The notes under the pieces: model-generated
Told to the model about the DNA's origin: nothing
Databases searched by the model: none
The model's input: only the letters and a program-made list of their open reading frames with translations
Origin: Mycobacteriales bacterium
GTDB lineage: Bacteria > Actinomycetota > Actinomycetes > JADGOV01
DNA length: 62,968 bases
Direction: 5' to 3'
NCBI GenBank assembly: GCA_038232055.1
Contig: JBBSIN010000005.1
Location: 1 to 62,968 of the forward strand
Part shown: positions 3,707 through 61,385 of the stretch, piece after piece
How the letters are laid out: every line of letters starts with the position of its first letter
How positions within the stretch are numbered: the stretch's first letter is position 1
Translations under genes and position numbers: made by a program

Positions 3707-4113
3707 TGGTCCGCCTGCTTCCGAACCGCGGGCTGCAGCTGGTCGAGCCGGGTCAGGACGCGGCGTACGGCCGCCGCGTCGAGGTTGCGGATGGCCCGGA
3801 CCCCGTCGCTGACGACGCCCAGCGCCTGCTCGGCCCGGTCGGCCGCCGCCAGGCAGGAAGCCGGGACCGTGACCGTGCGGTCGGCACTGACGCCTGCCGA
3901 CGGCGAGGGAGACGGCGTTGTGCTGCTCGCGGCCGCCGGCCTCGCGTTCCCGGTGTCACCGGCTTTCGTGACCCCGATCACGACGGCGCCCAGCAGCACG
4001 CCCAGCAGGAACGCTACGGCCGGGATCAGCCAGAAGCGCGCGCCGCCGCTCCGCCGAGGTGTGGGCGCAGGATCCGACGAGGGGACGTCGGTACGCCGCG
4101 GTTGATCGGTCAT
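3670..4113 (-). CDS. Single-TM membrane-anchored hypothetical protein
   Basis: GAGGAG RBS, one TM helix, Ser/Pro linker, helical domain with two Cys. The stop lies at the response regulator 5' end. Confidence 0.7.
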   Translation of the reverse strand: MTDQPRRTDVPSSDPAPTPRRSGGARFWLIPAVAFLLGVLLGAVVIGVTKAGDTGNARPAAASSTTPSPSPSAGVSADRTVTVPASCLAAADRAEQALGVVSDGVRAIRNLDAAAVRRVLTRLDQLQPAVRKQADQCRAAATEQVTP

Positions 4114-4238
4114 TCCAGCTCCTCAGCTCCGGCATCTGCAAGATCGAGTACCCGTGCCGCGCGGCAGGATGCGGACGGCAACCTTGCGAATGTGCGTCAA
4201 ACGGGTGCGAGAACCCGGCCTCGGGTAGTGCCCCGATC

Positions 4239-7261: not shown

Positions 7262-9052
7262 ATGTCCGACACGGTGGCCGACTTCCTGCTCGGGCGGCTC
7301 CGGGACTGGGGCGTCGAGAAGGTGTTCGCCTACCCCGGCGACGGCATCAACGGCATGCTCGCCGCCTGGGGCCGAGCCGGTAACGAGCCGAAGTTCGTCC
7401 AGGCCCGGCACGAGGAGATGGCCGCGTTCGAGGCGGTCGGCTACGCGAAGTTCACCGGACGGCTCGGCGTCTGTGCCGCGACCTCGGGGCCCGGTGCGAT
7501 CCACCTGCTCAACGGCCTCTACGACGCCAAGCTCGACCACGTGCCGGTCGTCGCGATCGTGGGCCAGACGGCGCGGAGCGGGCTCGGCGGCTCCTACCAG
7601 CAGGAGGTCGACCTGCAGACGCTGTTCAAGGATGTCGCGAGCGACTACGTGCAGACCGTGATGGTGCCGGAGCAGCTGCCCAACGTCATCGACAGGGCGA
7701 TTCGCATCGCGTACACACAGCGCAGCGTCACCTGCGTGATCATTCCGTCGGACGTGCAGGAGCTCGAGTACTCGGCACCGACACACGCCTTCAAGATGGT
7801 GCCGTCGAGCCTGGGGATGCCCAGAATCGAGGTGCACGCGCCCGAAGCGGACATCCGCCGGGCGGCCGACGTGCTCAACGCGGGCAGCAAAGTCGCCATG
7901 CTCATCGGGCACGGGGCCCGGCAGGCCCGCGAGGAGGTCATCCAGGTCGCCGAGGCACTCGGCGCCGGGGTGGCAAAGGCGTTGCTGGGTAAGGACGTCC
8001 TTCCGGACGACCTGCCCTACGTGACCGGGTCGATCGGGCTGCTCGGCACCCGCCCGTCGTACGAGATGATGATGGACTGCGACACGGTCCTGACGATCGG
8101 CTCGAGCTTCCCGTACACCCAGTTCATGCCGCCGTTCGACCAGGCCCGAGGCATCCAGATCGACATCGACCCGAAGATGATCGGGATTCGCTACCCCTAC
8201 GAGGTCAACCTCGTCGGCGACGCGCAGGCAACGCTCAAGGCGCTGATCCCCATGCTGCAGCGCAAGGACGACCGGTCGTGGCGCACCGACATCGAGTCGA
8301 AGGTGGCCCGCTGGTGGGAGGTCATGGAGCGACGGGCGCATACGAGCGCAGACCCGATCAACCCACAGCAGGTATTCGCGGAGTTGTCGCCGCAGTTGCC
8401 GGACAACGTGATGCTTACCAGTGACTCCGGCTCGGCCGCGAACTGGTACGCGCGGCACATCAAGATGCGGGGCGCCATGCGGAGTTCGCTCTCCGGAAAC
8501 CTCGCCACGATGGGACCGGGAGTGCCCTACGCGATCGGCGCGAAGTTCGGCCATCCGGACCGTCCGGCCGTGGCGCTGGTCGGCGACGGCGCGATGCAGA
8601 TGAACGGCATCAACGAGCTCATCACCATCAAGAAGTACTGGCAGGAGTGGAGCGACCCACGCCTCGTCGTCGGGGTCCTGCACAACGATGACCTCAACCA
8701 GGTGACGTGGGAGATGCGGGCCATGAGTGGCGCGCCGGAGTTCCTGCCGTCCCAGCACCTGCCGGACTTCCCGTACGCCGGCTACGCCGAGAGCCTCGGG
8801 CTGCTCGGCATCCGCGTCGATCGTCCGGAGCAGGTAGGCCCGGCATGGGAGCGGGCCCTTCGGGCCGACCGGCCGGCGGTCGTGGAGTTCATCACCGACG
8901 CCTCTGTGCCGCCAATTCCGCCACACGCCACCCTCGACCAGATCGAGAAGGCCACCGAAGCCGTGGTGCGCGGGGACGCGGACTCGTGGGACCTGATCAA
9001 GGAGGGCGTCAAGACGAAGGTGCAGGAGTTCCTTCCCGGGACGAAGGAGTGA
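7262..9052 (+). CDS. Thiamine pyrophosphate-requiring enzyme (pyruvate oxidase/dehydrogenase-like)
   Basis: YPGDGING, RHEEMAAF, TSGPGAIHLLNGLYDAK; TPP motif GDGAMQM...HNDDLN. Confidence 0.93.
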   Translation: MSDTVADFLLGRLRDWGVEKVFAYPGDGINGMLAAWGRAGNEPKFVQARHEEMAAFEAVGYAKFTGRLGVCAATSGPGAIHLLNGLYDAKLDHVPVVAIVGQTARSGLGGSYQQEVDLQTLFKDVASDYVQTVMVPEQLPNVIDRAIRIAYTQRSVTCVIIPSDVQELEYSAPTHAFKMVPSSLGMPRIEVHAPEADIRRAADVLNAGSKVAMLIGHGARQAREEVIQVAEALGAGVAKALLGKDVLPDDLPYVTGSIGLLGTRPSYEMMMDCDTVLTIGSSFPYTQFMPPFDQARGIQIDIDPKMIGIRYPYEVNLVGDAQATLKALIPMLQRKDDRSWRTDIESKVARWWEVMERRAHTSADPINPQQVFAELSPQLPDNVMLTSDSGSAANWYARHIKMRGAMRSSLSGNLATMGPGVPYAIGAKFGHPDRPAVALVGDGAMQMNGINELITIKKYWQEWSDPRLVVGVLHNDDLNQVTWEMRAMSGAPEFLPSQHLPDFPYAGYAESLGLLGIRVDRPEQVGPAWERALRADRPAVVEFITDASVPPIPPHATLDQIEKATEAVVRGDADSWDLIKEGVKTKVQEFLPGTKE

Positions 9053-9492
9053 GCGGCCCGCTCTACGGCATCGACTGGATGGTCCGCAACGTCGAGACCG
9101 GTCGCTTCGAGCGGTCGCTGTCGGTGCTCAGCGCGGTGGGCGCAGCGGTGACCGCGATGGAGATCTACCTCGAGCACGATCGGGCGAGCTTCGGCAACCG
9201 GATGATGTGGCTCCCGGTCGCGCTAGGCCCGGTCGGTTTCGCGACGGGGATCGCCGGCTTCTTCTCGCGGCGGGCAGCGAAGACGGCGCTGCCTTTGTCG
9301 TCGGCGCTCATCCTGGCCAATGGTGTGCAGGGCACCTACCTGCACGTCCGTGGGATCGGACAACGACCGGGCGGCTGGCGACTCGCGCGGTACAACCTCG
9401 AGATGGGTCCCCCGCTGTTCGCGCCGCTGCTGATGTCCGTGGTCGGTGGCATGGGGGTCCTCGCCGCCATCCTGCGGCGCGAGGGCGACTGA
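9049..9492 (+). CDS. 4-TM hypothetical membrane protein with two His in or near helices
   Basis: GTG overlaps the upstream TGA. LEHDRASF...GTYLHVRG...GPPLFAP. Confidence 0.75.
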   Translation: MSGPLYGIDWMVRNVETGRFERSLSVLSAVGAAVTAMEIYLEHDRASFGNRMMWLPVALGPVGFATGIAGFFSRRAAKTALPLSSALILANGVQGTYLHVRGIGQRPGGWRLARYNLEMGPPLFAPLLMSVVGGMGVLAAILRREGD

Positions 9493-9494
9493 CG

Positions 9495-10223
9495 GTGGTG
9501 TTCCACAAGCGCGGCCTCGAGAGCCAGGGCGACACGCCAGGGGGAAAGCAGGAGCGCTTCCCCGGGTACGACGTGCTGGGCGAGGTGAGGACGTGGGACG
9601 CGGTCACCGCGGGCGTCGTCCTGGGTCGCCTCGGCATGCCGGCAGCCCTGCGCTACTTCACGGTAGGCGAGCAGGCGGCCGGGACGGCGCTGTTCGACCA
9701 GCTGCTCGACCAGCGGGCGGCGCCGCGCGTACCCGTCCTCGAGCTCATCGACGCCCGGCTGGCCGAGGACCAGACCGACGGCTGGCGCTACCAGGACATG
9801 CCGCCGGACGGCGAGGGGTTCCGGCGCAGCTTCGCCGGCCTCGACGACGACGCGCGCGGCGCGTATGGCCGCCGCTTCAGCGAGCTGGAGTGGGACGCCC
9901 AGGCCGATGTCGTCCAGCGGGTCCACGACGTGGGGGCACGCGACTGGCACGGTATGAACGCGACGCACATCTGGTCGCTCTGGACGCGCTACGCCTGCTC
10001 GGCGTTCTACAGCCACCCCTGGGCGTGGAACGAGATCGGGTTCGGCGGGCCGGCGTATCCCCGCGGATACAAGAACCTCGGGCTGGACTCCCGCGAGCCG
10101 TACGAGGTGGCGGACCGGACGAACCGTAGCCCCACCGGATGGGGCGACCGGGTCGAGGCGGCGCGTCGCCAGCACGCCGGCGCGGCCCGCTCCGCCGCCG
10201 AGCGGAAAGAGCCCGGCGCGTGA
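9495..10223 (+). CDS. Gluconate 2-dehydrogenase subunit 3 family protein
   Basis: C-terminal FYSHPWAWNEIGFGGPAYPRGY signature. Precedes a GMC flavoprotein. Confidence 0.8.
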   Translation: MVFHKRGLESQGDTPGGKQERFPGYDVLGEVRTWDAVTAGVVLGRLGMPAALRYFTVGEQAAGTALFDQLLDQRAAPRVPVLELIDARLAEDQTDGWRYQDMPPDGEGFRRSFAGLDDDARGAYGRRFSELEWDAQADVVQRVHDVGARDWHGMNATHIWSLWTRYACSAFYSHPWAWNEIGFGGPAYPRGYKNLGLDSREPYEVADRTNRSPTGWGDRVEAARRQHAGAARSAAERKEPGA

Positions 10224-11905
10224 GGCTGCCCACGAGGAAGATGTTCGACGACGTACGGCAGCGCAACGAGTCGGCGTGGCTGCTGCCGAACGACGGCAGC
10301 CGAACCAACTACGAGCTGCGCCGCAACATGCAGCGCTTCGACGACAGCGACGAGGTGGACCTGGTCATCGTCGGCTGCGGTGCCGGCGGTGGCGTCCTGC
10401 TGCAACGGCTCGCCCGCGCCGGCTGGAAGGTCGTCGCCCTCGACGCCGGGCCGTTCTGGGACCCTGATACCGACTGGGTGAGCGACGAGTTGGGCTCGCA
10501 CCACCTCTACTGGACCGAGCCGCGCGTCATCTCCGGCAGCGATCCGGTCCCGCTCGGGTCGAACAACTCCGGCCGAGGCGTCGGTGGCTCGATGGTCCAC
10601 TACGCCGGTTACACCCCTCGTTTCCATCCGAGCGACTTCTCGATGCACAGCGACGACGGAGTGGGCGCCGACTGGCCGATCTCCTACCCGACCCTTCGGC
10701 CGTACTACGAGATGATCGAGTCGGAGCTACCGGTCGCCGGCGAGCACTGGCCCTGGGGCGACCCGCACGACTATCCGATGTCGCCGCATCCGATCGGCGG
10801 TGGCGGCATGGTGTTCCAGCGTGGCTGCGTCGCCGCCGGGATCGACGTCCGGGTCGGCCCGGTCGCGATCACGAACGGGCGCTTCGGTAACCGCCCACAC
10901 TGCATCTACCGAGGTTTCTGCGTCCAGGGCTGCAAGGTCAACGCCAAGGCGTCCCCGTTGATCACGCACGTCCCGGACGCCCTGGCGCACGGTGCCGAGG
11001 TGCGCGCGGACGCGATGGTGACGCGAGTGGTCGTCGACGACGACAGCGGCCTGGCGACCGGCGTCCGCTACCTGCGGGGCGGCGTCGAGCGGTTCCAGCG
11101 GGCGCGGATGGTCGCGGTGGCCGGCTACTCGATCGAGACCCCCCGGCTGCTGCTCAACTCGGCGACCAGGAGATGGCCGGACGGCCTCTGCAACGACGCC
11201 GATCTCGTCGGCAGGTACCTCATGGTGCAAGGCGCACCGCAGACGGCAGGCCGGTTCGCCGAGGAGGTCCGCGCGTACAAGGCGCCGCCCCCCGAGGTCT
11301 CCACCGAGGCGTTCTACGAGACCGATCCCGGCAAGCCGTACAAGCGCGGCTTCTCGATCCAATGCGTATCGCCGCTGCCGATCACCTACGCCGAGCACGT
11401 CACTGCCCAGGGGCACTGGGGACCGGTGCTGCGGGAGTACATGCGCGACTACGTGCACTGGGCGACGTTCGGCGCGCTGTGCGAGTTCCTGCCGCTGCCC
11501 GGCAACCGGGTGACCCTCGCCGACGAGACCGACCGATACGGGTTGCCGGTGGCGAACTTCTCCTACAGCCAGTGCGACAACGACCGGGCGCTCATGGCGG
11601 CGGCGCAGGCGGTGATGGAGCGCATTTTCGAGGCGGCCGGCGCGGAGGAAACCATCACGATCAAGAGGTTCGCGCACCTCGTCGGCGGCTGCCGCATGGG
11701 CACCGACGCCACCTCGGGCGTCGTGGACGAGTCGTTGCGGAGCTTCGCGATTCCCAACCTCAACATCACCGACGGGTCGGTCCTGCCGACGCAGGGCTCG
11801 GCCAATCCGGCGCTGACCATCATGTCGCTCGCGGCCCGGGCCGCTGACCTGCTGCGCGACGGCGCCCGCACCGGCTCGCCCGCCGCGACGGCCCGCAGCC
11901 GATGA
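10220..11905 (+). CDS. GMC family oxidoreductase (FAD)
   Basis: VIVGCGAGGG dinucleotide motif, GRGVGGS, CIYRGFCVQGC cysteine cluster, AHLVGGCRMG, ANPALTIM. Confidence 0.93.
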   Translation: MRLPTRKMFDDVRQRNESAWLLPNDGSRTNYELRRNMQRFDDSDEVDLVIVGCGAGGGVLLQRLARAGWKVVALDAGPFWDPDTDWVSDELGSHHLYWTEPRVISGSDPVPLGSNNSGRGVGGSMVHYAGYTPRFHPSDFSMHSDDGVGADWPISYPTLRPYYEMIESELPVAGEHWPWGDPHDYPMSPHPIGGGGMVFQRGCVAAGIDVRVGPVAITNGRFGNRPHCIYRGFCVQGCKVNAKASPLITHVPDALAHGAEVRADAMVTRVVVDDDSGLATGVRYLRGGVERFQRARMVAVAGYSIETPRLLLNSATRRWPDGLCNDADLVGRYLMVQGAPQTAGRFAEEVRAYKAPPPEVSTEAFYETDPGKPYKRGFSIQCVSPLPITYAEHVTAQGHWGPVLREYMRDYVHWATFGALCEFLPLPGNRVTLADETDRYGLPVANFSYSQCDNDRALMAAAQAVMERIFEAAGAEETITIKRFAHLVGGCRMGTDATSGVVDESLRSFAIPNLNITDGSVLPTQGSANPALTIMSLAARAADLLRDGARTGSPAATARSR

Positions 11906-44878: not shown

Positions 44879-44882
<4 letters not shown>

Positions 44883-45580
44883 CCCCGGCAATCGGCGCGG
44901 TGCTCTTCGACATGGACGGCCTGCTCGTCGATTCCGAGCCGGTCTGGTACGCCGTCGAGGTGGAAGTCATGGCCCGACTCGGCGGTGGGTGGTCGCACGA
45001 ACAGCAGGCGGCCTGCGTCGGCGGGCCGCTCGGGCACACGGCCGAGCACATGGCCGCCCTGGTGGGCAGCGACGTCGACCCGCGACTGGTCGAGGGCTGG
45101 CTGGTCGAGGGGATGGCCGAGCGGCTCGCCGCCGGTGTCACGCTCCTGCCGGGAGCCCCCGAGCTGCTCGACGCGCTGGCGACGGCCGCAGTCCCGTGCG
45201 GGCTGGTGTCCTCGTCGTACCGGCGGCTCGTCGATCTCGTGCTCGACGCGGTGGACCGCACCGGTCCGGCCGCTGGCCGCTCCCCGGCTTCCGCCGCCTT
45301 TGCGGTGTCCGTCGCGGGTGACGAGGTCAGCCATGGCAAGCCGCATCCCGAGCCCTACCTGGTCGCCGCCGCGCGGCTCGGGGTCGACCCGGCGAGCTGT
45401 GTCGTGCTCGAAGACTCCCTGACCGGGGTGGCCTCGGCCGAGGCGGCGGGGTGTGTCTGCGTCGCCGTACCCGATCTGGTGCCCATTCCGGCGACGGCGA
45501 CCCGTCCGGTGCTCGCCTCCCTGGCCGGGGTGGACGTTGCCTGGCTGGCAAGTCTCCCGGGCCGGCTCGCCGCCGGCTGA
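44879..45580 (+). CDS. HAD family phosphatase
   Basis: FDMDGLLVDSE, KPHPEPY, EDSLTG. Confidence 0.92.
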
Positions 45581-45674: not shown

Positions 45675-45716
45675 GCAAGAGGCGGTCGGGCGCCCCCGCT
45701 CCCGACCGCCCCTTGC
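45675..45716. terminator. Hairpin between HAD and cysQ
   Basis: GGCGGTCGGG (45681-45690) / CCCGACCGCC (45701-45710), extended by GCAAG/CTTGC. Confidence 0.5.
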
Positions 45717-45738: not shown

Positions 45739-46479
45739 ATGATCGAGGACTCCGCACTCGCGGCCGCGCTCGCCACCGACGCCGGCCAGCTGTTGCTGAA
45801 GGTGCGAGAGGAGTACGCCGACGCCGACCAGCCCACGCGCAAGGCGGCCGGCGACCGGAGGTCGCACGAGTTCCTGATGGCCGCCCTGGCCCAGGCCCGC
45901 CCGACCGACGCCGTGCTCTCGGAGGAGGGCAAGGACGACCCCGTGCGGCTGGAGTCCGAACGGGTGTGGATCGTCGATCCCCTGGACGGGACGCGGGAGT
46001 ACTCCGAGTTCCGTGCCGACTGGGCGGTGCACGTCGCCCTCTGGCAGGCCGGTGAGCTCGTCGCCGGGGCGGTCGCCCTGCCGGGAAGCGACGTCACTTT
46101 CGCCACGCCCACGGTTCCGCTCGCTCCGGCGTACGGCGGTGCGCCTCGCCTGGTGGTCAGCCGCAGCCGGCCCCCTGCGTGGATTCCATCGGTGCAGGAG
46201 GCGCTCGACGCCGAGCTGGTGCCGATGGGGTCGGCCGGCGCCAAGGTGATGGCCATCGTTCAGGGCCTCGCCGATGTCTACGTGCACGCCGGCGGGCAGT
46301 ACGAGTGGGACTCTGCGGCGCCGGTGGTCGTCGCCAGGGCGGCCGGCTTGCACACCTCGCGGGTCGACGGCTCACCCCTGCGCTACAACTCGCGGGACCC
46401 GCTGCTGCCGGACCTGGTCGTCTGCCGTCCGGAGCTGGCTGGCGACGTGATGGCGGCAGTGACGTCGATCGCGAGCTGA
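45739..46479 (+). CDS. cysQ: 3'(2'),5'-bisphosphate nucleotidase (PAP phosphatase)
   Basis: LSEEG, WIVDPLDGTREYSE, GSAGAK, YEWDSAAP. Confidence 0.92.
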   Translation: MIEDSALAAALATDAGQLLLKVREEYADADQPTRKAAGDRRSHEFLMAALAQARPTDAVLSEEGKDDPVRLESERVWIVDPLDGTREYSEFRADWAVHVALWQAGELVAGAVALPGSDVTFATPTVPLAPAYGGAPRLVVSRSRPPAWIPSVQEALDAELVPMGSAGAKVMAIVQGLADVYVHAGGQYEWDSAAPVVVARAAGLHTSRVDGSPLRYNSRDPLLPDLVVCRPELAGDVMAAVTSIAS

Positions 46480-46491
46480 GCTCCGGCCCGG

Positions 46492-48282
46492 TCAGTGCAG
46501 GGGGAAGAAGACCGGGATGGTCGCCAGGGCGATGGCCACCGTCGAGCCCACGAGCACGATGCCGAGCCGGCCGAAGTCCCAGAAGCGGTACCCGCCCATG
46601 CCGTAGACGATCATGTTGGTCTGGTAGCCGATCGGCGTGAGGAACGACGACGACGCCCCTACCGCCACGGCGATCGCGAAGGGCCGTGGGTCGGCCGAGA
46701 TCTGCGCTGCGGTCGCGAGCGCGATGGGAAACATGACGATCGCGGTGGCGTTGTTCGTCACCAGCTGGGTGATGAGCACCGTGGCGACGAGCACCGCACC
46801 GAGCACCCCCACGTCGCCCCAGCCGCCGAAGACGCGGATGAGCAGGTGCGCGATGTCGGTCGCGAGACCGCTCGACGCCATCGCGGCGCCGAGCCCGAAC
46901 GACGCGGCGAGCACGACGATCACGTTGAGGTCGATCGCCGCCCGCGCCTCCTGCGGGCTCAGGACGCGAAACCCGACGAGGAGCAGCGCCGCGATGAGCG
47001 AGGCGTGCAGGACGGGCAGCAGGCCGGAGGCGGCGGCGGCGAGGAACCCGACGACGACGAGGCCCACCACCCAGGCCTTGTCGCGGCGTACCGGGCCACC
47101 GCCTCCCATCGGCGCGGTGAGCGCGAACTCCGGTGCCCCCCGCCACCGCCGGCGCAGATCGCCCGGTCCGAGGACCACGAGCACGTCGCCGGGATGCAGG
47201 GCGATGGACCCCAGCTTGCCGGCCACGGGCTCGCCCTCGCGGTGGATGGCGACCACCGCGGCGCCGTACCGGTTGCGGAAGTCGACGTCCTTGAGGGTCG
47301 ACCCGCCGAGCGGTGACCCGGGAGCGACGACCGCCTCGTAGAAGCGGCGGCCTGGGCCGCCGGCCACGGAGAAGTGGTGCTCGTCGGCCGACTGCAGCCC
47401 ACGCACCCGCTGCAGGTCGACGACGTGGTTCACGTTGCCGGCGAAGACGAGCCGGTCACCCTGGGCGAGCCGCTCGGTGGGGGCCACCGGGGCGATGGCA
47501 GTACCGTCGCGCTCGATCTCGACCAGGTACACGCCTTCGAGGTTGCGCAGGCCGGCCTCGGCCACGGTCCGTCCGACCAGGCCGTCCCGCGCGACCTTCA
47601 TCTCGAACGTGAAGTGTCGGGGGTCGTCACCGACGTCCTCGCTCGGCGCCTGCCGGCGGGGGACGAGCCGGGGTGCCAGCAGCACGGTGAGCGCGATGCC
47701 GACGACCGCGATCGGCAGCCCGACCGGCGTGATCTCGAAGAGCGACAGCCCGTCCTGGTGGGCGCCTCTCAGCAGACCGGTGACCACGACGTTCGTGGTC
47801 GTTCCGATGGACGTGACGAGGCCACCGAGCAGCACCGCCGCGTTGAGCGCCATCAGGTACCACGACGGCGAGCGCCGGCTCCGCCGGGCCCAGGCGGAGA
47901 CCTGGGGTGCCAGCATGCCGGTCGTCGGGGTGTTGTAGACGACCGAGGACAGCAGTGCGGTCGGCATGAGCACTCGCGCGAGCTCGCGCCTCGTCGCCCG
48001 GTCCTGACGCTTCCCTCTCGGCCGGCGCCCGAGTGCGGTGGCGGTGATCCGGTCCAGGGCTCCGGTCACCTCGGCCGCGCCGGCCATCACGTACAGCGCC
48101 GCCACGGTCACCGGAGCCTCGCTGGAGAAGCCGGAGAAGGCCGCCTCCGCGTCGATGACGCGGGTGACCAGGAGCACCGTGACCGCCGCCAGGATGACGT
48201 ACGGCGCCGAGAACCGTTCGGTGGCGAGGCAGGCCACCGCCACCACGATCACCGCAAGGGTGAACCACGCCTCGATGCTCAT
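46492..48282 (-). CDS. SLC13 (DASS) family permease with TrkA-C domains, sulfate/dicarboxylate type
   Basis: YNTPTT, SIGTTTNVVV, two cytoplasmic RCK-C repeats, TNNATA, FLTPIGYQTNMIVYGMGGYRF. Confidence 0.9.
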   Translation of the reverse strand: MSIEAWFTLAVIVVAVACLATERFSAPYVILAAVTVLLVTRVIDAEAAFSGFSSEAPVTVAALYVMAGAAEVTGALDRITATALGRRPRGKRQDRATRRELARVLMPTALLSSVVYNTPTTGMLAPQVSAWARRSRRSPSWYLMALNAAVLLGGLVTSIGTTTNVVVTGLLRGAHQDGLSLFEITPVGLPIAVVGIALTVLLAPRLVPRRQAPSEDVGDDPRHFTFEMKVARDGLVGRTVAEAGLRNLEGVYLVEIERDGTAIAPVAPTERLAQGDRLVFAGNVNHVVDLQRVRGLQSADEHHFSVAGGPGRRFYEAVVAPGSPLGGSTLKDVDFRNRYGAAVVAIHREGEPVAGKLGSIALHPGDVLVVLGPGDLRRRWRGAPEFALTAPMGGGGPVRRDKAWVVGLVVVGFLAAAASGLLPVLHASLIAALLLVGFRVLSPQEARAAIDLNVIVVLAASFGLGAAMASSGLATDIAHLLIRVFGGWGDVGVLGAVLVATVLITQLVTNNATAIVMFPIALATAAQISADPRPFAIAVAVGASSSFLTPIGYQTNMIVYGMGGYRFWDFGRLGIVLVGSTVAIALATIPVFFPLH

Positions 48283-49811
48283 GCCTGCACAGTCGGCGCC
48301 GGAGCTGTCGGGCGCAGGAGCTCTCGCAGGATGACGCGGTCCTCGGCCGCGAAACCGAGCGCGACCAACACGCCAACGTAGACGAACACTGCTGTCGCGA
48401 TGCCAAGAATCGAGTCGAACGGGGACGGCAGGACGTCGCGGACGACGATGCAGGCCACAAGACTGGCCGCGCCCGCCAGCAGGCCCTTGGCGACGCTCAG
48501 GTTGACCGGCAGCATCCGCAGCAGGACCCACACCTCGAGGATCCGCACGGCATTGAGAGCGATCAGTGAGACCTGCCACGCGACGGCGGCTCCCAGGATG
48601 CCGTGGTCCGGAATCAGCCACACGTTGAGCGCAATGTTCAGGGCGAGCGCGCCGATGTTGTCGATCATCGAGAGCACCGACCGTCCCGACTGGTTCAGCA
48701 CGACGCCGCACGGGCCGGCAGCCGAGTCGAGAAACTTGCCGATCACCAGAACCGCCGCGACCTGCGCGCCGACCCGGTACGCCGGCCCGAACAGGCCGAG
48801 GAGCGGGGAGCTGAACACGATCAGGACGATGCTCGCCGGCAGCAGGAGTCGGACGATCCAGCTGGTCGCGGCGGTGTAAGCCCGGGACAGGCTGACCATC
48901 GCGCGACGGGTGTAGAGCAGCGCGATGCGCGGAGCCAACGACGCGCCGATGGGCGTCGCCACGAACGTCGCGAGGGTCACGAGTCGGGTGGCGACGCTGT
49001 AGACGCCGACCTCCGCGCTGGTGCGGTAGACGCCGAGCAGGATGGTATCGGCCCACACCAGGCCCGAGGAGGCCAGCGACGTGAACCAGCTGACCGAGGA
49101 GAAGCCGAGGAGCTCGCGCACCTGGTAGCGGTAGTAGTCCGGCCGCGGCCCCAGCAACCGGCGCAGCGCCAGGAACGCCAGCGCCGCGGCCACGTAGTTG
49201 CTGACGACGAGAGCCGCCATGGCGCCACGCAGCCCGAGGCCGGCCGCGAGAAGCACGCAGGTCAGCGTGAACCGGGTGAGCGGCTCGAACACCATGCCGA
49301 CCAGCGCGTACGGCCGCGTCGTCCGGAAGCCCTGCGTCGCCGACAGCGCGGCGTCCGTGAACGTGGCGGCCGGTAGCGCCACGCCGACGAAGCGCAGCGG
49401 CGTGATCAGGCCGTCGTCGGAGAAGGCGGCATGGACGATGGCCGGCGCCAGGAGCACCAGAGCGACGCCGAGTACCAGCGCCCCACCGGTGCTGATGGCT
49501 ACGCCAAGCCGGCTCGTGCCGTGCACGGCCGCCTCGTCTTGGTCGGCGAGGTGCACGGCGACGAACCGGATGAGACCCGCCCGAAGACCTGACAGGGATA
49601 GCAGCCCGAGCAGGACGAGGAACGCGAACGCCTGAGCGTAGAGACCGACCTCACGTCGGCCGAGCAGGCGCACCATGACGATCGTGATGCCGAGCAGCGC
49701 AGCCTGGCTGATCACTGCGGAGACGAGGTTGAGCCCACCGCCGCGCGCGAAGCCGACAAGATCGCGGCCGGCCGCCGCAGGAGGCCCGCTCGCCGAGCGT
49801 GACGTCACCAT
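48279..49811 (-). CDS. Wzx-like oligosaccharide flippase (MOP superfamily)
   Basis: 12-14 TM; LGRREVGLY, DTILLG...EVGVYSVA, GILGAAVA. Confidence 0.9.
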   Translation of the reverse strand: MVTSRSASGPPAAAGRDLVGFARGGGLNLVSAVISQAALLGITIVMVRLLGRREVGLYAQAFAFLVLLGLLSLSGLRAGLIRFVAVHLADQDEAAVHGTSRLGVAISTGGALVLGVALVLLAPAIVHAAFSDDGLITPLRFVGVALPAATFTDAALSATQGFRTTRPYALVGMVFEPLTRFTLTCVLLAAGLGLRGAMAALVVSNYVAAALAFLALRRLLGPRPDYYRYQVRELLGFSSVSWFTSLASSGLVWADTILLGVYRTSAEVGVYSVATRLVTLATFVATPIGASLAPRIALLYTRRAMVSLSRAYTAATSWIVRLLLPASIVLIVFSSPLLGLFGPAYRVGAQVAAVLVIGKFLDSAAGPCGVVLNQSGRSVLSMIDNIGALALNIALNVWLIPDHGILGAAVAWQVSLIALNAVRILEVWVLLRMLPVNLSVAKGLLAGAASLVACIVVRDVLPSPFDSILGIATAVFVYVGVLVALGFAAEDRVILRELLRPTAPAPTVQA

Positions 49812-49915
49812 GCCGAGCCATCCTTATTGTGTGCCGGGCGGCTCGGTGATCTTCGCGCTGTCAGTGCCTGCCCCGCGGAACGTTCCACGTCAGTACGACG
49901 GTAGCTCGCCCTACG

Positions 49916-51472
49916 TCAGTAGGCGCCGCTACCACGCAGGACGGCGAAGACCGTCTTCCAGAGGATCATAAAGTCGAGCGCGAGCGACCAGTTCTCCACG
50001 TACTCGAGGTCGAGGCGCACGGACTCGTCCCAGCTGAGGTCGGAGCGGCCGCTGACCTGCCACAGGCCGGTGAGTCCCGGCTTGACGAGCAGGCGCCGGC
50101 GTACGTCGCTCTCGTACAACTCCACCTCGCTCGGCAGCGGCGGCCGCGGCCCGACGAGCGACATGTCACCCTTGAGGACGTTAAGCAGCTGGGGAAGCTC
50201 GTCGAGGGAGTACCGGCGGAGCCAGCGACCCACCCAGGTGACCCGAGGGTCCAGGCGAATCTTGAAGAGCAAACCGTCAGACCGGTCGTTCTCGTCGAGC
50301 AGCGTCTCGAGCTGCGCCTCCGCGTCGACATGCATCGAGCGGTACTTGTAGATGGTGAAGGGACGCCCGCCCTTGCCGCAGCGAATCTGACGGAACAGCA
50401 CCGGTCCAGCCGTCGTGAGCCACACGGCCAGCCCGAGCGTCACGAGCATCGGCAGCAGCAGCACGATCGCGCTCAGGGCGATAGTCCGGTCGGAGAACGC
50501 CTTGAGCAGGCGACGCCCGCCGGAGAGCTCCGGCTCGTCGACGTGCAGCAGCGGCAGTCCGGCCACTGGCCGGATGTGAATGCGTGGCCCGGCGATGTCG
50601 GTGAGGGCCGGCGCGACGAGGATGTCGACACCGCTGCCCTCGAGGTCCCAGGACAACCGGCGCAGCGCCGCGCCGGAGACCTCGCCGCAGGATGTCACGG
50701 CCACCGAGGAGGCTCGGGCGCCGCGGACTGCCGCCCCGATCATCGAGAGGTCACCGAGCACCGGGATGCCCTCGACTCCCGAGATCCGGCTTGAGCTGCG
50801 CTGCTCGATGCAGCAGCCGACGACGGCCATCCCGGCGTACGGCGCGCGGCGGGTCGTACGGATCAGGTCCGCGACGCTCTGCTCGCTGCCGGCCACGATG
50901 ACCCGGTGGGCGCAGCGGCCCTTGCGGCGGAGCTGGATCAAGACCTTGCGGACGCCGTAGCGGCCCAGCAGGTCGAGCGCTGTCGCCAACGGCAACGCGA
51001 TGACCACGAAGCGCCGCCCGATGTGCGAGTCGGTGGCGTAGGACACCGTGGCAATGGCGGCGATGAGCCGCAGTGCGGCATTGCAGGTGCGCTTGAACTC
51101 CTCCGAGCCCAGGGCGAGGAACCGCGCCTCGTACGCGCGGCTCAGCCACATCGACACGACCCAGGCGGCGGCAAGAGCGATCGTCAGGACTGCGTAGCGC
51201 TGGCCGGGGAGCGTGCCCTCGTTGCGGAACCGGACGAAGAGAGCGACGAAGGAGGAGAGCAGGATGGCCGCAATGTCGACGGTGACCACGACCGCGACGA
51301 GTCGGCTCTCCCAGCGCTTCGACGCCCGGTACTCCTGCGGAGCGGTGTCAGCTGCGGGCAGCAACCGGATGTGGGCTGCCGGCTCCGTAAGGTCGATCAC
51401 CCGATCGGTCGCGGCGGATGCGCCGCTGACGCGACCGTCGGAGGGTGGACCGTCAAGTCGGTTGGTGCGCAT
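49916..51472 (-). CDS. Priming polyprenyl glycosylphosphotransferase (WcaJ/CpsE-like sugar transferase); start uncertain (51472-51598)
   Basis: Four TM plus Rossmann-like domain, IYKYRSM, DPRVT, RYSLDELPQL, GDMSLVGPRP, KPGLTGLWQVSGRS. Confidence 0.93.
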   Translation of the reverse strand: MRTNRLDGPPSDGRVSGASAATDRVIDLTEPAAHIRLLPAADTAPQEYRASKRWESRLVAVVVTVDIAAILLSSFVALFVRFRNEGTLPGQRYAVLTIALAAAWVVSMWLSRAYEARFLALGSEEFKRTCNAALRLIAAIATVSYATDSHIGRRFVVIALPLATALDLLGRYGVRKVLIQLRRKGRCAHRVIVAGSEQSVADLIRTTRRAPYAGMAVVGCCIEQRSSSRISGVEGIPVLGDLSMIGAAVRGARASSVAVTSCGEVSGAALRRLSWDLEGSGVDILVAPALTDIAGPRIHIRPVAGLPLLHVDEPELSGGRRLLKAFSDRTIALSAIVLLLPMLVTLGLAVWLTTAGPVLFRQIRCGKGGRPFTIYKYRSMHVDAEAQLETLLDENDRSDGLLFKIRLDPRVTWVGRWLRRYSLDELPQLLNVLKGDMSLVGPRPPLPSEVELYESDVRRRLLVKPGLTGLWQVSGRSDLSWDESVRLDLEYVENWSLALDFMILWKTVFAVLRGSGAY

Positions 51473-52037
51473 CGCGTTCCCCGACCCGGGGACCCCTGGC
51501 GCGGCTGTCCGGGACGCGGCGCCGGAGAGCAGGCGCGTCCGCGGTTCGCCGGTCGCCGATGCCGCGCGTTCCCGCGTACGCAGCACAGCCCTTATCACCG
51601 TCGGTCACCTCAAAATCAGTCGAGCGCATCAGTATTACCGAAAGAATTTCCCGGATGAGCAGGCATTCGATGCCGACCGCTCTTCCGGATGCCCGCGAAC
51701 CACAGCCACTGGCTCGTCACCGGCCGTAGCCACACATCCTGCCATCAAAGCCGCTGTTCGGACCGTTGGCGATCCGCCGAACGGCTGACCAGGGTCCACC
51801 GTTTCGATATCTCGTAGTTGCGCGGCTACCCTGAGTGAGAGACAGTGGAACCGGCCGACCGGGTCGCACCCGCCGGTTCGGCCCGCGCCGGACCTGGGAA
51901 GCCGGTACGATAGGCCCCTCAGGGCGAAATAGTTCAGCACCCGCCGTCGGCCGAGGGCCGTGGCTGGGACGCTCTTTCACGTGGGCGAGATGTCGCGCCC
52001 GTGCCCGTCCCTTTCCTTGGAGGAGGAGTCCGAACCG

Positions 52038-53768
52038 GTGGTCGACCATCTCATCGAGCCGCATGGCGGCGTGCTCGTCAACCTGCTCGCCGACGACGAG
52101 CGCTCGGCGGAGCTCGTCAAGCAGTCCCGCGACTGGCCGTCGTGGGATCTCACGCCGCGCCAGCTCTGCGACGTCGAGCTGCTTGTCTCGGGCGGCTTCT
52201 CTCCGCTGACCGGCTTCCTCGGGTCGGCCGACTATCAGTCGGTCTGCGAGCAGATGCGCTTGGCGGACGGCACGCTGTGGCCGATACCGGTCACGCTCGA
52301 CGTGCCGGAGGAGTTCGCGGCTGGGCTGGAGCCCGGCGCGAGCATCGCGCTGCGCGACGCCGAAGGGGTCATGCTGGCCGCTCTGCACATCCAGGACCTT
52401 TACCGGCCGGACCTCGCGGCGGAGGCCCAGCAGGTCTTCGGGACGACCGATGTCAAGCACCCGGGGGTCGCTCACCTGCTGCAGCGAGCCAACCCCGTCT
52501 ACCTCGGCGGACGGGTCGAGGGTTTGCAGCTGCCGCTGCACTACGACTACCGCGAGCTGCGGCAGACGCCGGCTGAGCTGCGCGCCGTTTTCGCCGAGAA
52601 GGGCTGGCGCAAGGTCGTCGCCTTCCAGACCCGCAACCCGCTGCACCGGGCGCACCAGGAGCTGACGCTGCGGGCGGCCAAGGAGGTCGGCGCCAACCTG
52701 CTCATCCACCCGGTCGTCGGCATGACCAAGCCGGGTGACGTGGACCACTACACCCGCGTTCGCTGCTACTCGGCGATCATGCCGTCGTATCCGCACGGTA
52801 CGGCGATGCTCTCGCTGCTGCCGCTCGCGATGCGCATGGGTGGTCCGCGCGAGGCGGTTTGGCACGCGATCATCCGAAAGAACCACGGCGTTACGCACTT
52901 CATCGTCGGCAGGGACCACGCGGGTCCCGGCGACGACTCGAACGGCAAGCCGTTCTACGGTCCCTACGACGCCCAGGACCTGCTCCGCCAGCACCAGGAG
53001 GAGCTCGGCGTGGTGATGGTGCCGTTCCAGATGATGGTCTACGTCGAGGACCGCGACGAGTACATGCCGGTCGACGAGGTCCCGGAGGGCGCTCGCACGC
53101 TCTCGATCTCCGGCACTGAGCAGCGCCGCCGGCTCTCGTTGGGTCTCGACCTGCCGACATGGTTCACCCCGCCGGCGGTTGCCGAAGAGCTGCGCCGGTC
53201 CTACCGGCCGCGGTCGAAGCAGGGTTTCACGGTGTTCTTCACCGGTCTGTCCGGTTCCGGCAAGTCGACGATCGCGAACGTGCTGCTGGTCAAGTTGCTC
53301 GAGATGGGTGGCCGCCCGGTCACCATGCTCGACGGTGACCTCGTCCGCAAGCACCTGTCCAGCGAGCTCGGCTTCTCCAAGGAGCACCGCGACATCAACA
53401 TCCGCCGCATCGGGTGGGTGGCGTCGGAGATCACCAAGAACGGCGGCATCGCCGTTTGCGCGCCGATCGCGCCGTACGAGGTGACGCGCTGGGACGTGCG
53501 TTCGATGGTCGAGCCCAACGGTGGTTTCGTCCTCGTCCACATCGCGACGTCGGTCGACGTGTGCGAGGAGCGCGACCGCAAGGGTCTCTACGCCAAGGCC
53601 CGGGCCGGGGTGCTCAAGGAGTTCACCGGCATCAGCGACCCGTACGAGGAGCCCACCGACGCCGAGGTGCGCGTGGACACCGCCGAACTCACCGCCGAGG
53701 AGGCGGCCCAGGAGATCGTGCTGTACCTGGAGCGGGAGGGCTACATCGGCGCGGCCGAAGCGGTCTGA
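52038..53768 (+). CDS. Bifunctional ATP sulfurylase (Sat-type) / adenylylsulfate kinase
   Basis: FQTRNPLHRAH, HFIVGRDHAG; kinase FTGLSGSGKST, LDGD, DRKGLYAKAR, FTGISDPYEEP. GGAGGAGG RBS. Confidence 0.95.
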   Translation: MVDHLIEPHGGVLVNLLADDERSAELVKQSRDWPSWDLTPRQLCDVELLVSGGFSPLTGFLGSADYQSVCEQMRLADGTLWPIPVTLDVPEEFAAGLEPGASIALRDAEGVMLAALHIQDLYRPDLAAEAQQVFGTTDVKHPGVAHLLQRANPVYLGGRVEGLQLPLHYDYRELRQTPAELRAVFAEKGWRKVVAFQTRNPLHRAHQELTLRAAKEVGANLLIHPVVGMTKPGDVDHYTRVRCYSAIMPSYPHGTAMLSLLPLAMRMGGPREAVWHAIIRKNHGVTHFIVGRDHAGPGDDSNGKPFYGPYDAQDLLRQHQEELGVVMVPFQMMVYVEDRDEYMPVDEVPEGARTLSISGTEQRRRLSLGLDLPTWFTPPAVAEELRRSYRPRSKQGFTVFFTGLSGSGKSTIANVLLVKLLEMGGRPVTMLDGDLVRKHLSSELGFSKEHRDINIRRIGWVASEITKNGGIAVCAPIAPYEVTRWDVRSMVEPNGGFVLVHIATSVDVCEERDRKGLYAKARAGVLKEFTGISDPYEEPTDAEVRVDTAELTAEEAAQEIVLYLEREGYIGAAEAV

Positions 53769-53784
53769 CCAGTCGTACGTCAGG

Positions 53785-53820
53785 AGGGGCGCCCCCGTTG
53801 CGGGGCGCCCCTTCTTGCTT
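53785..53820 (+). terminator. Intrinsic terminator (likely bidirectional)
   Basis: AGGGGCGCCCC / GGGGCGCCCCT stem, then TCTTGCTT, between convergent genes. Confidence 0.75.

Positions 53821-57311: not shown

Positions 57312-61385
<4,074 letters not shown>

What the first reader, a model, noticed from the sequence alone, without database searches (positions are those of the whole stretch)
45739..53820. Compact sulfation + glycan-export module: candidate sulfated exopolysaccharide/glycolipid system
Seen: an inner operon (priming glycosyltransferase, Wzx flippase, SLC13 permease; the last two overlap by ATGA) is bracketed by sat-cysC (divergent) and cysQ (convergent), and closed by a strong terminator. 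It interrupts the metH-HAD...RecB-trmI-arc backbone. There is no cysH/sulfite reductase, so this is not cysteine biosynthesis. Established: ATP sulfurylase + APS kinase make PAPS, and CysQ removes the PAP produced by sulfotransferases. Inference: sulfate uptake, PAPS supply and PAP recycling are dedicated to a Wzx/Wzy-type glycan, a rarely described product in Actinobacteria. Caveat: no sulfotransferase, elongating glycosyltransferases or Wzy are in the window.
Basis: partly seen in the sequence, partly recalled or inferred. Interest (0 to 1): 0.68.

Follow-up and report, generated by a model that had tools for sequence, protein, structure and literature searches.

The report
Sulfate supply module for sulfated exopolysaccharide
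An uncultured soil-type actinomycete keeps the genes for importing sulfate, making the sulfate donor PAPS and clearing its by-product next to the genes that start and flip a surface sugar polymer. A matching cluster with five sulfate-adding enzymes sits elsewhere in the genome, so the organism probably makes a sulfated slime polymer, a design already known from other bacteria.

Summary
Window 45739-53820 encodes a CysQ-type PAP phosphatase, an SLC13/DASS permease with two TrkA-C domains, a Wzx-like flippase (ATGA overlap with the permease), a polyprenyl-phosphate glycosylphosphotransferase (PGT) and, divergently, a Sat-CysC fusion with intact catalytic motifs. A GC-rich hairpin closes the region.

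- The genome has seven Sulfotransfer_3 genes. Five sit on contig C27 in a Wzx/Wzy cluster with glycosyltransferases and a Wzy but no PGT.
- In relatives G003, G002 and G044, the homologous sulfotransferase island lies next to the orthologous PGT and sat-cysC. In G003 it fills the slot cysQ-[island]-PGT-sat-cysC within the same metH...trmI-arc backbone.

"Dedicated" is too strong. Relatives carry an APS-reductase-type CysH, so Sat probably also feeds assimilation there. In this 86%-complete MAG I found no CysH/CysD, sulfite reductase, SulP or Sbp, but that absence is inconclusive.

The design is already known. PAPS supply inside a sulfated-polysaccharide cluster is described in Cobetia and Vibrio. 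The Actinoplanes wps-1 cluster with adjacent sat/APS-kinase is the actinomycete precedent. This is a new member of a known kind, and no chemistry has been done.

The parts
45675..45716 (.). Hairpin (19-nt arms, 89% complementary) between the metH-HAD unit and cysQ. It probably terminates the upstream unit and marks the left edge of the module.
45739..46479 (+). CysQ-type 3'-phosphoadenosine-5'-phosphate (PAP) phosphatase, 246 aa
   Evidence: Pfam Inositol_P at 4.6e-32. The best NCBIfam hit is TIGR01331 CysQ, at 112.6 bits and below its cut-off of 228.8. The best solved structure is M. tuberculosis CysQ 5DJF, E 6.5e-70 over residues 3-242. Orthologues are adjacent to HAD in G003 (77%) and G201 (72%).
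46492..48282 (-). SLC13/DASS-superfamily anion permease, 596 aa, with two cytoplasmic TrkA-C domains. Candidate sulfate importer.
   Evidence: CitMHS 5.1e-59, TrkA_C x2 and Na_sulph_symp. About 10 hydrophobic segments and the motif ASSSFLTPIGYQTNMIV at residue 543. Homologues abut sat-cysC or cysC in four other genomes from other lineages. No SulP or Sbp was found in the own genome.
48279..49811 (-). Wzx-like flippase (MOP superfamily), up to 510 aa. Its stop overlaps the permease start (ATGA).
   Evidence: Polysacc_synt 2e-20, Polysacc_synt_3 and MatE. Overlap shown. A 59%-identical orthologue sits at the same position in G201.
49916..51598 (-). Priming polyprenyl-phosphate hexose-1-phosphate transferase (large WbaP/WcaJ-type PGT). 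The start codon is uncertain (51400-51598).
   Evidence: Bac_transf 2.2e-66 and CoA_binding_3. TIGR03025 at 415.4 bits, above its cut-off of 295.55; WcaJ and WbaP are below their cut-offs. Orthologues (68-72%) lie next to sat-cysC and the sulfotransferase islands in G001, G002, G003 and G044.
51599..51959 (.). Divergent intergenic region between PGT and sat-cysC. It contains a partly conserved palindrome (window about 51753-51785; GGCCATCCTCCGAATGGCC in relatives).
   Evidence: No Rfam family was found.
51960..53768 (+). Bifunctional ATP sulfurylase / APS kinase (Sat-CysC fusion, PAPS synthase), about 595-602 aa
   Evidence: PUA_2, ATP-sulfurylase and APS_kinase domains. PRK05537 at 923.4 bits, above its cut-off of 669. 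Motifs QTRNPLHRAH, GRDHAG, P-loop GLSGSGKST and LDGD are all present.
53782..53815 (.). GC-rich hairpin (GGGGCGCCCC stem, 6-nt loop) between the convergent sat-cysC and the FtsX-type permease. Probable bidirectional terminator and right edge of the module.
   Evidence: Not called by the T-tail scanner.

Best explanation
The locus is the supply and initiation half of a two-locus system for a sulfated Wzx/Wzy-type extracellular or cell-surface heteropolysaccharide. The steps below are inferred from family membership unless marked otherwise.

(1) The SLC13/TrkA-C permease brings in sulfate.
(2) The Sat domain makes APS, and the APS-kinase domain makes PAPS.
(3) The PGT puts the first sugar-1-phosphate on undecaprenyl phosphate.
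(4) Glycosyltransferases on contig C27 (Alg13/14-like pair, three GT2s) build the repeat unit.
(5) Soluble, signal-less Sulfotransfer_3 enzymes (five on C27, plus two elsewhere) sulfate the lipid-linked unit on the cytoplasmic face using PAPS.
(6) CysQ hydrolyses the inhibitory product PAP.
(7) A Wzx flips the unit. One Wzx is encoded here and a second on C27.
(8) The C27 Wzy polymerises it.

What is shown here is gene content, intact motifs and conserved linkage of PGT/sat-cysC with sulfotransferase islands in relatives. The product, the order of steps, the transported ion and the pairing of this PGT with the C27 cluster are all inferred.
For: - Gene identities and motifs.
- Seven PF13469 sulfotransferases. 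Six show a 5'-PSB-type loop (GRSGTT, PRSGTT and similar); ST6's called start is truncated, so its loop was not seen. None has a hydrophobic segment.
- The C27 cluster has glycosyltransferases, Wzy and Wzx but no PGT. The genome's only other PGT (on C2) is an orphan among unrelated genes.
- In G003 the order is mshC-PAC2-metH-HAD-cysQ-[sulfotransferases, Alg13/14, GT2, Wzy, Wzx, GH26-like, propellers, Wzz-like]-PGT-sat-cysC-FtsX-ABC-...-trmI-arc. G002 and G044 are equivalent.
- G201 shows the same split layout: a compact HAD-cysQ-Wzx-PGT-satC module, plus a separate cluster holding about four sulfotransferase genes, Wzy and Wzx.
- Relatives' CysH carries CCxxRKxxPL and SxGCxxCT, the APS-reductase type. 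Their assimilation therefore needs neither the kinase domain nor CysQ, which leaves sulfation as the role of PAPS (the meaning of the motifs is recalled knowledge).
- C27 has the same composition as the rest of the bin.
- Precedents: deleting the adjacent sat/APS-kinase gene AMIS_7390 gives a severe sporangium defect in Actinoplanes, whose wps-1 cluster encodes two sulfotransferases (PMC13390465). The Cobetia sulfated capsule cluster carries cysNC, cysD, cysQ and a sulfate permease (PMC11766843).
Against: - There is no chemical or expression evidence. The genome is an 86%-complete MAG, so C5 and C27 are linked only by binning.
- In this genome the sulfotransferases are not adjacent to the module.
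- Two flippases and two PGTs leave the pairing ambiguous.
- No Wzz/PCP homologue was found in the own genome.
- sat-cysC with cysQ is a widespread, highly conserved pair: cysQ lies within 10 kb in 42 of 80 loci across about five phyla, mostly without recognisable EPS genes. The pair is therefore not specific to glycan sulfation.
- Sat probably also serves assimilation in relatives.
- SLC13 homologues are absent from the nearest relatives, and some sit in unrelated contexts.
Confidence: 0.7

Rival explanations
1. This is housekeeping sulfate activation that merely neighbours a glycan hot-spot. On this reading sat-cysC is the organism's general ATP sulfurylase and feeds APS to CysH/SirA for cysteine. 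CysQ is the general PAP phosphatase. The PGT-Wzx pair belongs to an unrelated, unsulfated glycan pathway that lies in a variable slot beside the proteasome locus.
For: Relatives have exactly one PAPS_reduct-family hit, a CysH next to a SirA-like gene, and no CysD. Sat must therefore serve assimilation there. The sat-cysC/cysQ pair is conserved at 70-82% identity across phyla, mostly without EPS genes within 10 kb. The absence of cysH in the own MAG is inconclusive, because the syntenic region on C19 lies near a contig end.
Against: An APS-reductase route needs neither the intact APS-kinase domain nor CysQ. No CysH, CysD, SiR, SulP or Sbp was detected in the own genome. The PGT/sat-cysC divergent pair stays joined to sulfotransferase islands in four relatives from two families. 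This rival overlaps with the best explanation as a shared-use model rather than excluding it.
Confidence: 0.15
2. PAPS from this module mainly serves non-polysaccharide acceptors, such as sulfolipids, sulfated menaquinone-like lipids or small metabolites (as in mycobacterial Stf enzymes). The EPS linkage would be secondary.
For: Two sulfotransferases lie outside any glycan cluster: C12 28107-28955, which overlaps ppa by 4 bp, and C36 1557-2501, next to purK/purE. CysQ is closest to M. tuberculosis CysQ. That enzyme is known to support sulfolipid synthesis (recalled knowledge).
Against: Five of the seven sulfotransferases are interleaved with glycosyltransferases, Wzy and Wzx. In relatives the islands next to sat-cysC are glycan clusters. 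No Stf0-type family search was made.
Confidence: 0.08
3. Sub-claim rival: the SLC13/TrkA-C permease does not import sulfate. It would carry di- or tricarboxylates or another anion and would be a chance passenger in the operon.
For: The strongest Pfam hit is CitMHS. TIGR00785 (DASS) scores 122 bits, below its cut-off of 198.6. Homologues in G096 and G180 sit among unrelated genes, and G092's two neighbours have no Pfam hit. The gene is absent from G001-G003 and from the otherwise identical G201 module.
Against: Its start overlaps the Wzx stop by ATGA. Homologues of 46-59% identity directly abut sat-cysC or cysC in G106, L061, L108 and L113, which come from different phyla or orders. Distribution against SulP is complementary: the own genome has SLC13 and no SulP, while G001-G003 have SulP and no SLC13. 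Bacterial DASS sulfate importers have been characterised (PerO; PMC5840216), and algal SAC1/SLT share the TrkA-C architecture (PMC8780407).
Confidence: 0.3

Closest known systems
Actinoplanes missouriensis wps-1 cluster plus adjacent AMIS_7390 (PMC13390465, 2026)
   Same: Both are from actinomycetes and use a Wzx/Wzy-dependent cluster. Both have several sulfotransferases, a GH26-type protein, GT2, Wzx and Wzy. A Wzz is present in relatives G044 and G003. A sat/APS-kinase gene sits at the cluster edge, and its deletion gives a severe phenotype. In both cases the sulfated product is predicted, not chemically shown.
   Different: Here the supply genes also include cysQ and an SLC13 permease, and the PGT is divergent from sat-cysC. 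The sulfotransferase/glycosyltransferase/Wzy genes are on another contig in this genome. There are five to seven sulfotransferases rather than two. No GT26, methyltransferase or DUF4262 was seen. I could not compare sequences directly, so homology to Wps proteins is untested. That paper's discussion treats AMIS_7390 as an amino-acid-biosynthesis enzyme and does not present it as the PAPS source.
Cobetia marina KMM 1449 and Vibrio sp. KMM 8419 sulfated capsule gene clusters (PMC11766843, PMC11641403)
   Same: The logic is the same: PAPS synthesis genes, cysQ and a sulfate permease (Cobetia region 2) sit inside or beside a polysaccharide cluster with sulfotransferases. The authors call PAPS genes plus sulfotransferase genes the hallmark of sulfated polysaccharide synthesis. 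Those products were structurally proven to be sulfated.
   Different: Those are Gammaproteobacteria that use ABC-transporter (Kps) export and CysDN/CysC rather than a Sat-CysC fusion. The permease family is not stated there. This system is Wzx/Wzy-dependent and split over two loci.
Synechan (xss) cluster of Synechocystis PCC 6803 (PMC8205485)
   Same: It is a Wzx/Wzy-type sulfated exopolysaccharide cluster with sulfotransferases, and its function has been demonstrated genetically and chemically.
   Different: It is cyanobacterial and plasmid-borne. I did not check its PAPS-supply gene content, and no sequence comparison was made.
Mycobacterium tuberculosis CysQ (PDB 5DJF)
   Same: It is the best structural-database match of the window's cysQ-like protein (E 6.5e-70, nearly full length), and it is a PAP phosphatase.
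   Different: In M. tuberculosis PAPS comes from CysDNC, and the sulfated products are lipids (recalled knowledge). Here CysQ flanks a glycan module.
Bacterial DASS sulfate importers (Rhodobacter capsulatus PerO and relatives; reviewed in PMC5840216) and algal SAC1/SLT (PMC8780407)
   Same: They belong to the same superfamily. [quoted passage not shown] DASS genes lie next to sat in some sulfate reducers.
   Different: No direct sequence comparison with PerO or SAC1 was possible here. The substrate of the window protein is untested, and its DASS NCBIfam score is below the cut-off.

Membership tests
Wzx/Wzy-dependent polysaccharide pathway | Initiating polyprenyl-phosphate glycosylphosphotransferase | tested here: met
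   Bac_transf at 223 bits. TIGR03025 at 415.4 bits, above its cut-off of 295.55.
Wzx/Wzy-dependent polysaccharide pathway | Wzx (MOP-family) flippase | tested here: met
   Polysacc_synt at 73.8 bits against a cut-off of 28.2, with about 9 or more hydrophobic segments. A second Wzx lies on C27.
Wzx/Wzy-dependent polysaccharide pathway | Wzy polymerase | tested here: met
   There is none in the window. C27 18701-20038 matches Wzy_C at 32.3 bits, just above the cut-off of 31.7. Orthologues of 35-45% identity occur in the G003, G002, G044 and G201 islands.
Wzx/Wzy-dependent polysaccharide pathway | Chain-length regulator (Wzz/PCP) | tested here: not met
   tblastn with the G044 Wzz and the G003 553-aa Wzz-like protein found nothing in the own genome at E<1e-4. 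The C27 cluster is cut by the contig end and the MAG is 86% complete, so the gene may simply be unassembled.
Bifunctional Sat/APS kinase (NCBIfam NF004040, PRK05537) | Full-length match above the curated cut-off | tested here: met
   923.4 bits against a cut-off of 669.
Bifunctional Sat/APS kinase (NCBIfam NF004040, PRK05537) | Catalytically competent APS-kinase domain (P-loop and DGD), as opposed to the regulatory kinase-like domain of fungal ATP sulfurylase | tested here: met
   GLSGSGKST and LDGD are present. The best PDB hit, P. chrysogenum 1I2D, has GYMNSGKD and LLGD at those positions. Enzyme activity itself was not tested.
CysQ 3'(2'),5'-bisphosphate nucleotidase | Equivalog-level match (TIGR01331) | tested here: not met
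   112.6 bits against a cut-off of 228.8. It is the best of the IMPase-family models but falls below the threshold.
CysQ 3'(2'),5'-bisphosphate nucleotidase | Close similarity to an experimentally characterised PAP phosphatase | tested here: met
   M. tuberculosis CysQ 5DJF, E 6.5e-70, residues 3-242 of 246.
PAPS-dependent sulfotransferases (Pfam PF13469 Sulfotransfer_3) | Domain match above the gathering score and a 5'-phosphosulfate-binding loop | tested here: met
   Seven genes in the own genome score 46.7-154.7 bits, against a cut-off of 27. Loops such as GRSGTT, PRSGTT and QRGGTT lie near the N-terminus of six; ST6's called start is truncated, so its loop was not seen. None is in the window.
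DASS/SLC13 sulfate symporters | Family-level match (TIGR00785 dass; Pfam Na_sulph_symp) | tested here: inconclusive
   Na_sulph_symp at 44.8 bits, above its cut-off of 27. TIGR00785 at 122 bits, below its cut-off of 198.6. CitMHS is the strongest hit at 200.5 bits.
DASS/SLC13 sulfate symporters | Sodium:sulfate symporter signature (PROSITE PS01271; pattern recalled from memory) | tested here: met
   ASSSFLTPIGYQTNMIV at residue 543 fits the recalled pattern. The pattern was not checked against PROSITE.
DASS/SLC13 sulfate symporters | Sulfate transport | not testable with these tools
   Only context is available: adjacency to sat-cysC or cysC in five genomes, and complementary distribution with SulP.
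Sulfated-polysaccharide gene cluster (hallmark per PMC11641403: PAPS genes plus sulfotransferases in one polysaccharide cluster) | PAPS-synthesis and sulfotransferase genes in the same polysaccharide locus | tested here: not met
   In this genome they lie on different contigs, C5 and C27. The criterion is met in relatives G003, G002 and G044.
Sulfated-polysaccharide gene cluster (hallmark per PMC11641403: PAPS genes plus sulfotransferases in one polysaccharide cluster) | Sulfate ester demonstrated in the polymer | not testable with these tools
   Requires chemistry.

The most novel reading that the evidence does not exclude
In this small-genome actinomycete, assimilatory sulfate reduction has been lost: no CysH/CysD, sulfite reductase, SulP or Sbp was found. 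Sulfate uptake through an acquired SAC1/PerO-like SLC13 permease and activation by Sat-CysC would then exist solely to decorate a heavily sulfated Wzx/Wzy polysaccharide made with five to seven sulfotransferases. The variable biosynthetic island would be framed by cysQ and PGT/sat-cysC in a conserved slot beside the proteasome locus, across an uncultured actinomycete family. Sulfate would be a structural nutrient only, and the lineage would be a source of highly sulfated bacterial polymers.
Probability: 0.25. Interest if true: 0.55.

Novelty: new member of a known kind. Interest (0 to 1): 0.4.

Why it matters
Sulfated polysaccharides are industrially and medically valuable. In bacteria they have been proven chemically only in cyanobacteria and a few marine Gammaproteobacteria. 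For actinomycetes the case is so far genetic only (Actinoplanes wps-1).

This locus and its relatives show that an uncultured actinomycete family carries sulfotransferase-rich Wzx/Wzy islands framed by PAPS-supply and PAP-recycling genes. That offers a direct explanation for the unexplained AMIS_7390 phenotype in Actinoplanes: the gene would supply PAPS for wps-1. It also gives a simple genomic marker for finding such producers, namely a PGT divergent from sat-cysC with cysQ at the other edge.

The locus is also a caution for metabolic annotation. In such genomes, sat/cysC/cysQ should not automatically be scored as 'assimilatory sulfate reduction'.

Tried and rejected
- Rfam scan of 44-58 kb at E<=0.1 found nothing, so no riboswitch or leader lies in the divergent region.
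- The consensus promoter/terminator scan found no sites. The hairpins were found only as inverted repeats.
- I tested whether C27's right end joins C36's left end. Both carry DUF5122 propeller genes, and C36 then has a sulfotransferase. There is no sequence overlap, so the join is unproven.
- I tested whether cysH/sirA are truly deleted. Flank genes of the G003 sirA-cysH locus map to own C19 at 31.5-33.9 kb. Synteny differs there and the contig ends at 36.5 kb, so the result is inconclusive.
- A class-wide SLC13 search with n=400 failed. I repeated it with n=200.
- The second PGT (C2) was examined as an alternative primer for the C27 glycan. It is an orphan among FAA hydrolase, pseudouridine-metabolism and sigma-factor genes, so it is neither supported nor excluded.
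- A Wzz search in the own genome was negative.
- I rejected mis-binning of C27 as an explanation. Its tetranucleotide correlation is 0.996 and its GC is 0.712 against a bin mean of 0.711.
- I rejected the idea that the kinase domain is a dead regulatory domain as in fungal ATP sulfurylase, because the P-loop and DGD motif are intact.


Full report
**What is in the window.** The region is about 70% GC and full of spurious ORFs. I chose real genes by third-position GC of 0.89-0.93. The genes in order are:
- HAD phosphatase, 44879-45580 (+).
- A 19-nt-arm hairpin, 45675-45716.
- cysQ-like, 45739-46479 (+).
- SLC13/DASS permease with two TrkA-C domains, 46492-48282 (-).
- Wzx-like flippase, 48279-49811 (-).
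- A large polyprenyl-phosphate glycosylphosphotransferase (PGT), 49916-51598 (-).
- A divergent intergenic region of about 360 bp.
- sat-cysC fusion, 51960-53768 (+).
- A GC-rich hairpin, 53782-53815.

The Wzx stop and the permease start overlap as ATGA. cysQ and the permease converge with a 12-bp gap.

The backbone to the left is uppP, mshC, PAC2 and metH-HAD. To the right lie a FtsX/MacB-type ABC permease and its ATPase, a PD-(D/E)XK nuclease, an esterase, an M50 peptidase, trmI and arc.

**Are the enzymes competent?**
- The Sat-CysC protein scores 923 bits on NCBIfam PRK05537, against a cut-off of 669.
- Its best solved relative is the Penicillium ATP sulfurylase, whose C-terminal kinase-like domain is regulatory. 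The window protein, however, keeps the APS-kinase P-loop GLSGSGKST and LDGD where the fungal protein has GYMNSGKD and LLGD. It also keeps the sulfurylase motifs QTRNPLHRAH and GRDHAG. I therefore read it as a true PAPS synthase.
- The cysQ-like protein is below the TIGR01331 cut-off. It nonetheless matches M. tuberculosis CysQ (5DJF) at E 6.5e-70 over almost its whole length.
- The PGT passes TIGR03025 but not the WcaJ or WbaP equivalogs, so the first sugar is unknown.

A whole-genome search with PF13469 found seven sulfotransferase genes. Five lie on contig C27 between 11.3 and 26.5 kb. They are interleaved with:
- an Alg14/Alg13-like glycosyltransferase pair and three GT2s;
- a Wzy_C protein and a second Wzx;
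- GH26-like/FN3 secreted proteins;
- a CDP-alcohol phosphatidyltransferase;
- a DUF5122 propeller that is cut by the contig end.

Six of the seven carry an N-terminal 5'-PSB-type loop (GRSGTT, PRSGTT and similar). ST6's called start is truncated, so its loop was not seen. None has a hydrophobic segment, so all should act in the cytoplasm.

The C27 cluster has no PGT. The genome has only two PGTs. One is in the window. The other is an orphan on C2, among unrelated genes. C27 is compositionally typical of the bin.

**The second refutation test: is the linkage conserved?** Full-length sat-cysC orthologues among 60 relatives occur only in G001-G003 (same family, 85-86%), G044 (82%) and G016 (75%), with weaker matches in G050 and G009. 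In G001, G002 and G003 the orthologous PGT (69-72%) is divergent from sat-cysC exactly as here, and the right flank is syntenic.

In G003 the complete order is mshC-PAC2-metH-HAD-cysQ-[about 37-kb island]-PGT-sat-cysC-FtsX-ABC-esterase-M50-trmI-arc. The island holds:
- homologues of the C27 sulfotransferases;
- Alg13/14, GT2a, Wzy and Wzx2;
- the GH26-like/FN3 paralogues and DUF5122 propellers;
- a Wzz-like protein.

G002 and G044 show the same kind of island joined to PGT and sat-cysC. G044 adds a Wzz and a probable glycerol-phosphate decoration set. G050 and G016 keep cysQ next to sat-cysC.

So cysQ on one side and PGT/sat-cysC on the other frame a variable sulfotransferase-rich glycan island in a fixed chromosomal slot. 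In the present genome that slot holds only Wzx and the permease, and the island is elsewhere. The same split layout is found in G201, a MAG labelled Mycobacteriales. It has HAD-cysQ-Wzx-PGT-satC without the permease, plus a separate cluster of Alg14/13, about four sulfotransferase genes, Wzy and Wzx.

**How dedicated is the supply?** In the own genome I found no PAPS_reduct family member (CysH or CysD), no NIR_SIR sulfite reductase, no SulP and no sulfate-binding protein.

Relatives each have one CysH, next to a SirA-like gene. It carries CCxxRKxxPL and SxGCxxCT, which I recall as the signature of APS reductases. In those genomes Sat must therefore also feed assimilation. The kinase domain and CysQ, however, are not needed for that route. 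This supports sulfation as the purpose of PAPS, and it also shows that 'dedicated' is too strong for Sat.

Whether this MAG has truly lost assimilation is unresolved. The syntenic region on C19 lies near a contig end.

A survey of 80 sat-cysC loci (70-82% identity, from Actinomycetota, Acidobacteriota, Verrucomicrobiota, Planctomycetota, Gemmatimonadota and others) found cysQ within 10 kb in 42. tblastn-detectable sulfotransferases appeared in only about seven, and a PGT in two. The sat-cysC/cysQ pair is thus a common unit and not by itself diagnostic of a glycan.

**The permease.** It is sporadic: only 9 of 201 class genomes have a homologue at E<1e-40, and none of the same-family relatives does.
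- *Contexts linked to sulfate activation.* Homologues directly abut sat-cysC in three loci from Acidobacteriota, Gemmatimonadota and Acidimicrobiia. One overlaps an APS-kinase gene by 4 bp in G106, with cysQ 3 kb away.
- *Unlinked contexts.* Homologues in G096 and G180 are in unrelated contexts, and G092's two neighbours have no Pfam hit.
- *Distribution against SulP.* The own genome has SLC13 and no SulP. G001-G003 have SulP and no SLC13.
- *Signature and precedents.* The protein carries a sequence that fits the sodium:sulfate symporter signature as I recall it. Bacterial DASS sulfate importers have been characterised (PerO and relatives; PMC5840216), and algal SAC1/SLT share the TrkA-C architecture (PMC8780407).

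I rate sulfate import at roughly 0.6-0.7.

**Comparison with the literature.**
- *PAPS supply inside a cluster.* This arrangement is described for chemically proven sulfated capsules. Cobetia marina KMM 1449 has cysN/C, cysD, cysQ and a sulfate permease (PMC11766843). Vibrio sp. KMM 8419 has cysNDC plus sulfotransferases (PMC11641403).
- *Wzx/Wzy sulfated EPS.* Synechan is the characterised example (PMC8205485).
- *Actinomycetes.* The closest case is Actinoplanes missouriensis wps-1. It has GT2, two sulfotransferases, GH26, Wzx, Wzy and Wzz, and an adjacent sat/APS-kinase gene, AMIS_7390. Deleting that gene gave a severe sporangium defect that was not ascribed to PAPS supply. Sulfation of the product was not verified (PMC13390465).
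- *Earlier notes of this scan.* They report many similar PAPS-plus-SLC13 modules in other phyla. I used them only as leads to the Cobetia and PerO literature, which I then read.

**Verdict.** The most likely mechanism runs as follows: sulfate import, PAPS synthesis, cytoplasmic sulfation of an undecaprenyl-diphosphate-linked repeat unit primed by the window's PGT, PAP removal by CysQ, then flipping and Wzy polymerisation.

This is a new member of a known kind. Its local points of interest are:
- the cysQ...PGT/sat-cysC frame around a variable island;
- the two-locus split shared with G201;
- the high sulfotransferase count for a genome of about 2.5 Mb;
- the possible loss of assimilatory sulfate reduction.

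Everything rests on sequence and a binned MAG. No chemistry or expression data exist.

Noticed in passing
own genome contig C12 27562-28955 (locus L012 7562-8955): An inorganic pyrophosphatase gene (ppa) overlaps a Sulfotransfer_3 gene by 4 bp. Pyrophosphate removal pulls the ATP sulfurylase reaction forward, so this coupling may be functional.
   Followed up: no
own genome contig C36 141-2501 (locus L011): A secreted DUF5122 beta-propeller gene and a sixth sulfotransferase sit just before purK/purE. C27 ends inside a paralogous propeller gene, and G003 has two adjacent propellers in its island, so C36 may continue C27. No sequence overlap was found.
   Followed up: partly
window 51753-51785, and the aligned intergenic regions of L045, L047, L048, L054: A partly conserved palindrome (GGCCATCCTCCGAATGGCC in G003; CCGAACGGC arm in the window) lies in the divergent PGT/sat-cysC intergenic region of five genomes. 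It is a candidate operator for co-regulating priming and sulfate activation.
   Followed up: partly
L049 (G044:C147) 3535-6442; own C27 27908-28747; own C36 20001-20975: The G044 island carries a CDP-alcohol phosphatidyltransferase, an Fe-ADH_2 (glycerol-1-phosphate-dehydrogenase-like) gene and a cytidylyltransferase. This suggests a glycerol-phosphate decoration in addition to sulfate. The own genome has the transferase on C27 and an Fe-ADH homologue (39%) on C36.
   Followed up: no
L054-L133 (80 loci from genome contigs): The Sat-CysC fusion is 70-82% identical at the protein level across Actinomycetota, Acidobacteriota, Verrucomicrobiota, Planctomycetota, Gemmatimonadota and a Burkholderiales MAG. 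That is unusually high for such distances and suggests lateral spread or very strong constraint.
   Followed up: no
own C27 9447-11342, 17512-18324, 24380-25249, and several copies in L134/L045/L047/L049: A family of paralogous proteins, weakly GH26-like and sometimes extended by FN3 repeats, recurs in two to six copies in every sulfotransferase island examined. A GH26 gene (wpsE) is also part of Actinoplanes wps-1 (PMC13390465).
   Followed up: partly
window 57312-58190: The PD-(D/E)XK nuclease gene between the ABC ATPase and the esterase has no counterpart at the syntenic position in G003.
   Followed up: no
L146 (G106:C55) 7889-10932: A 417-aa protein with a C-terminal APS-kinase domain and an N-terminal extension of about 230 aa with no Pfam match overlaps an SLC13 permease gene by 4 bp.
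   Followed up: no
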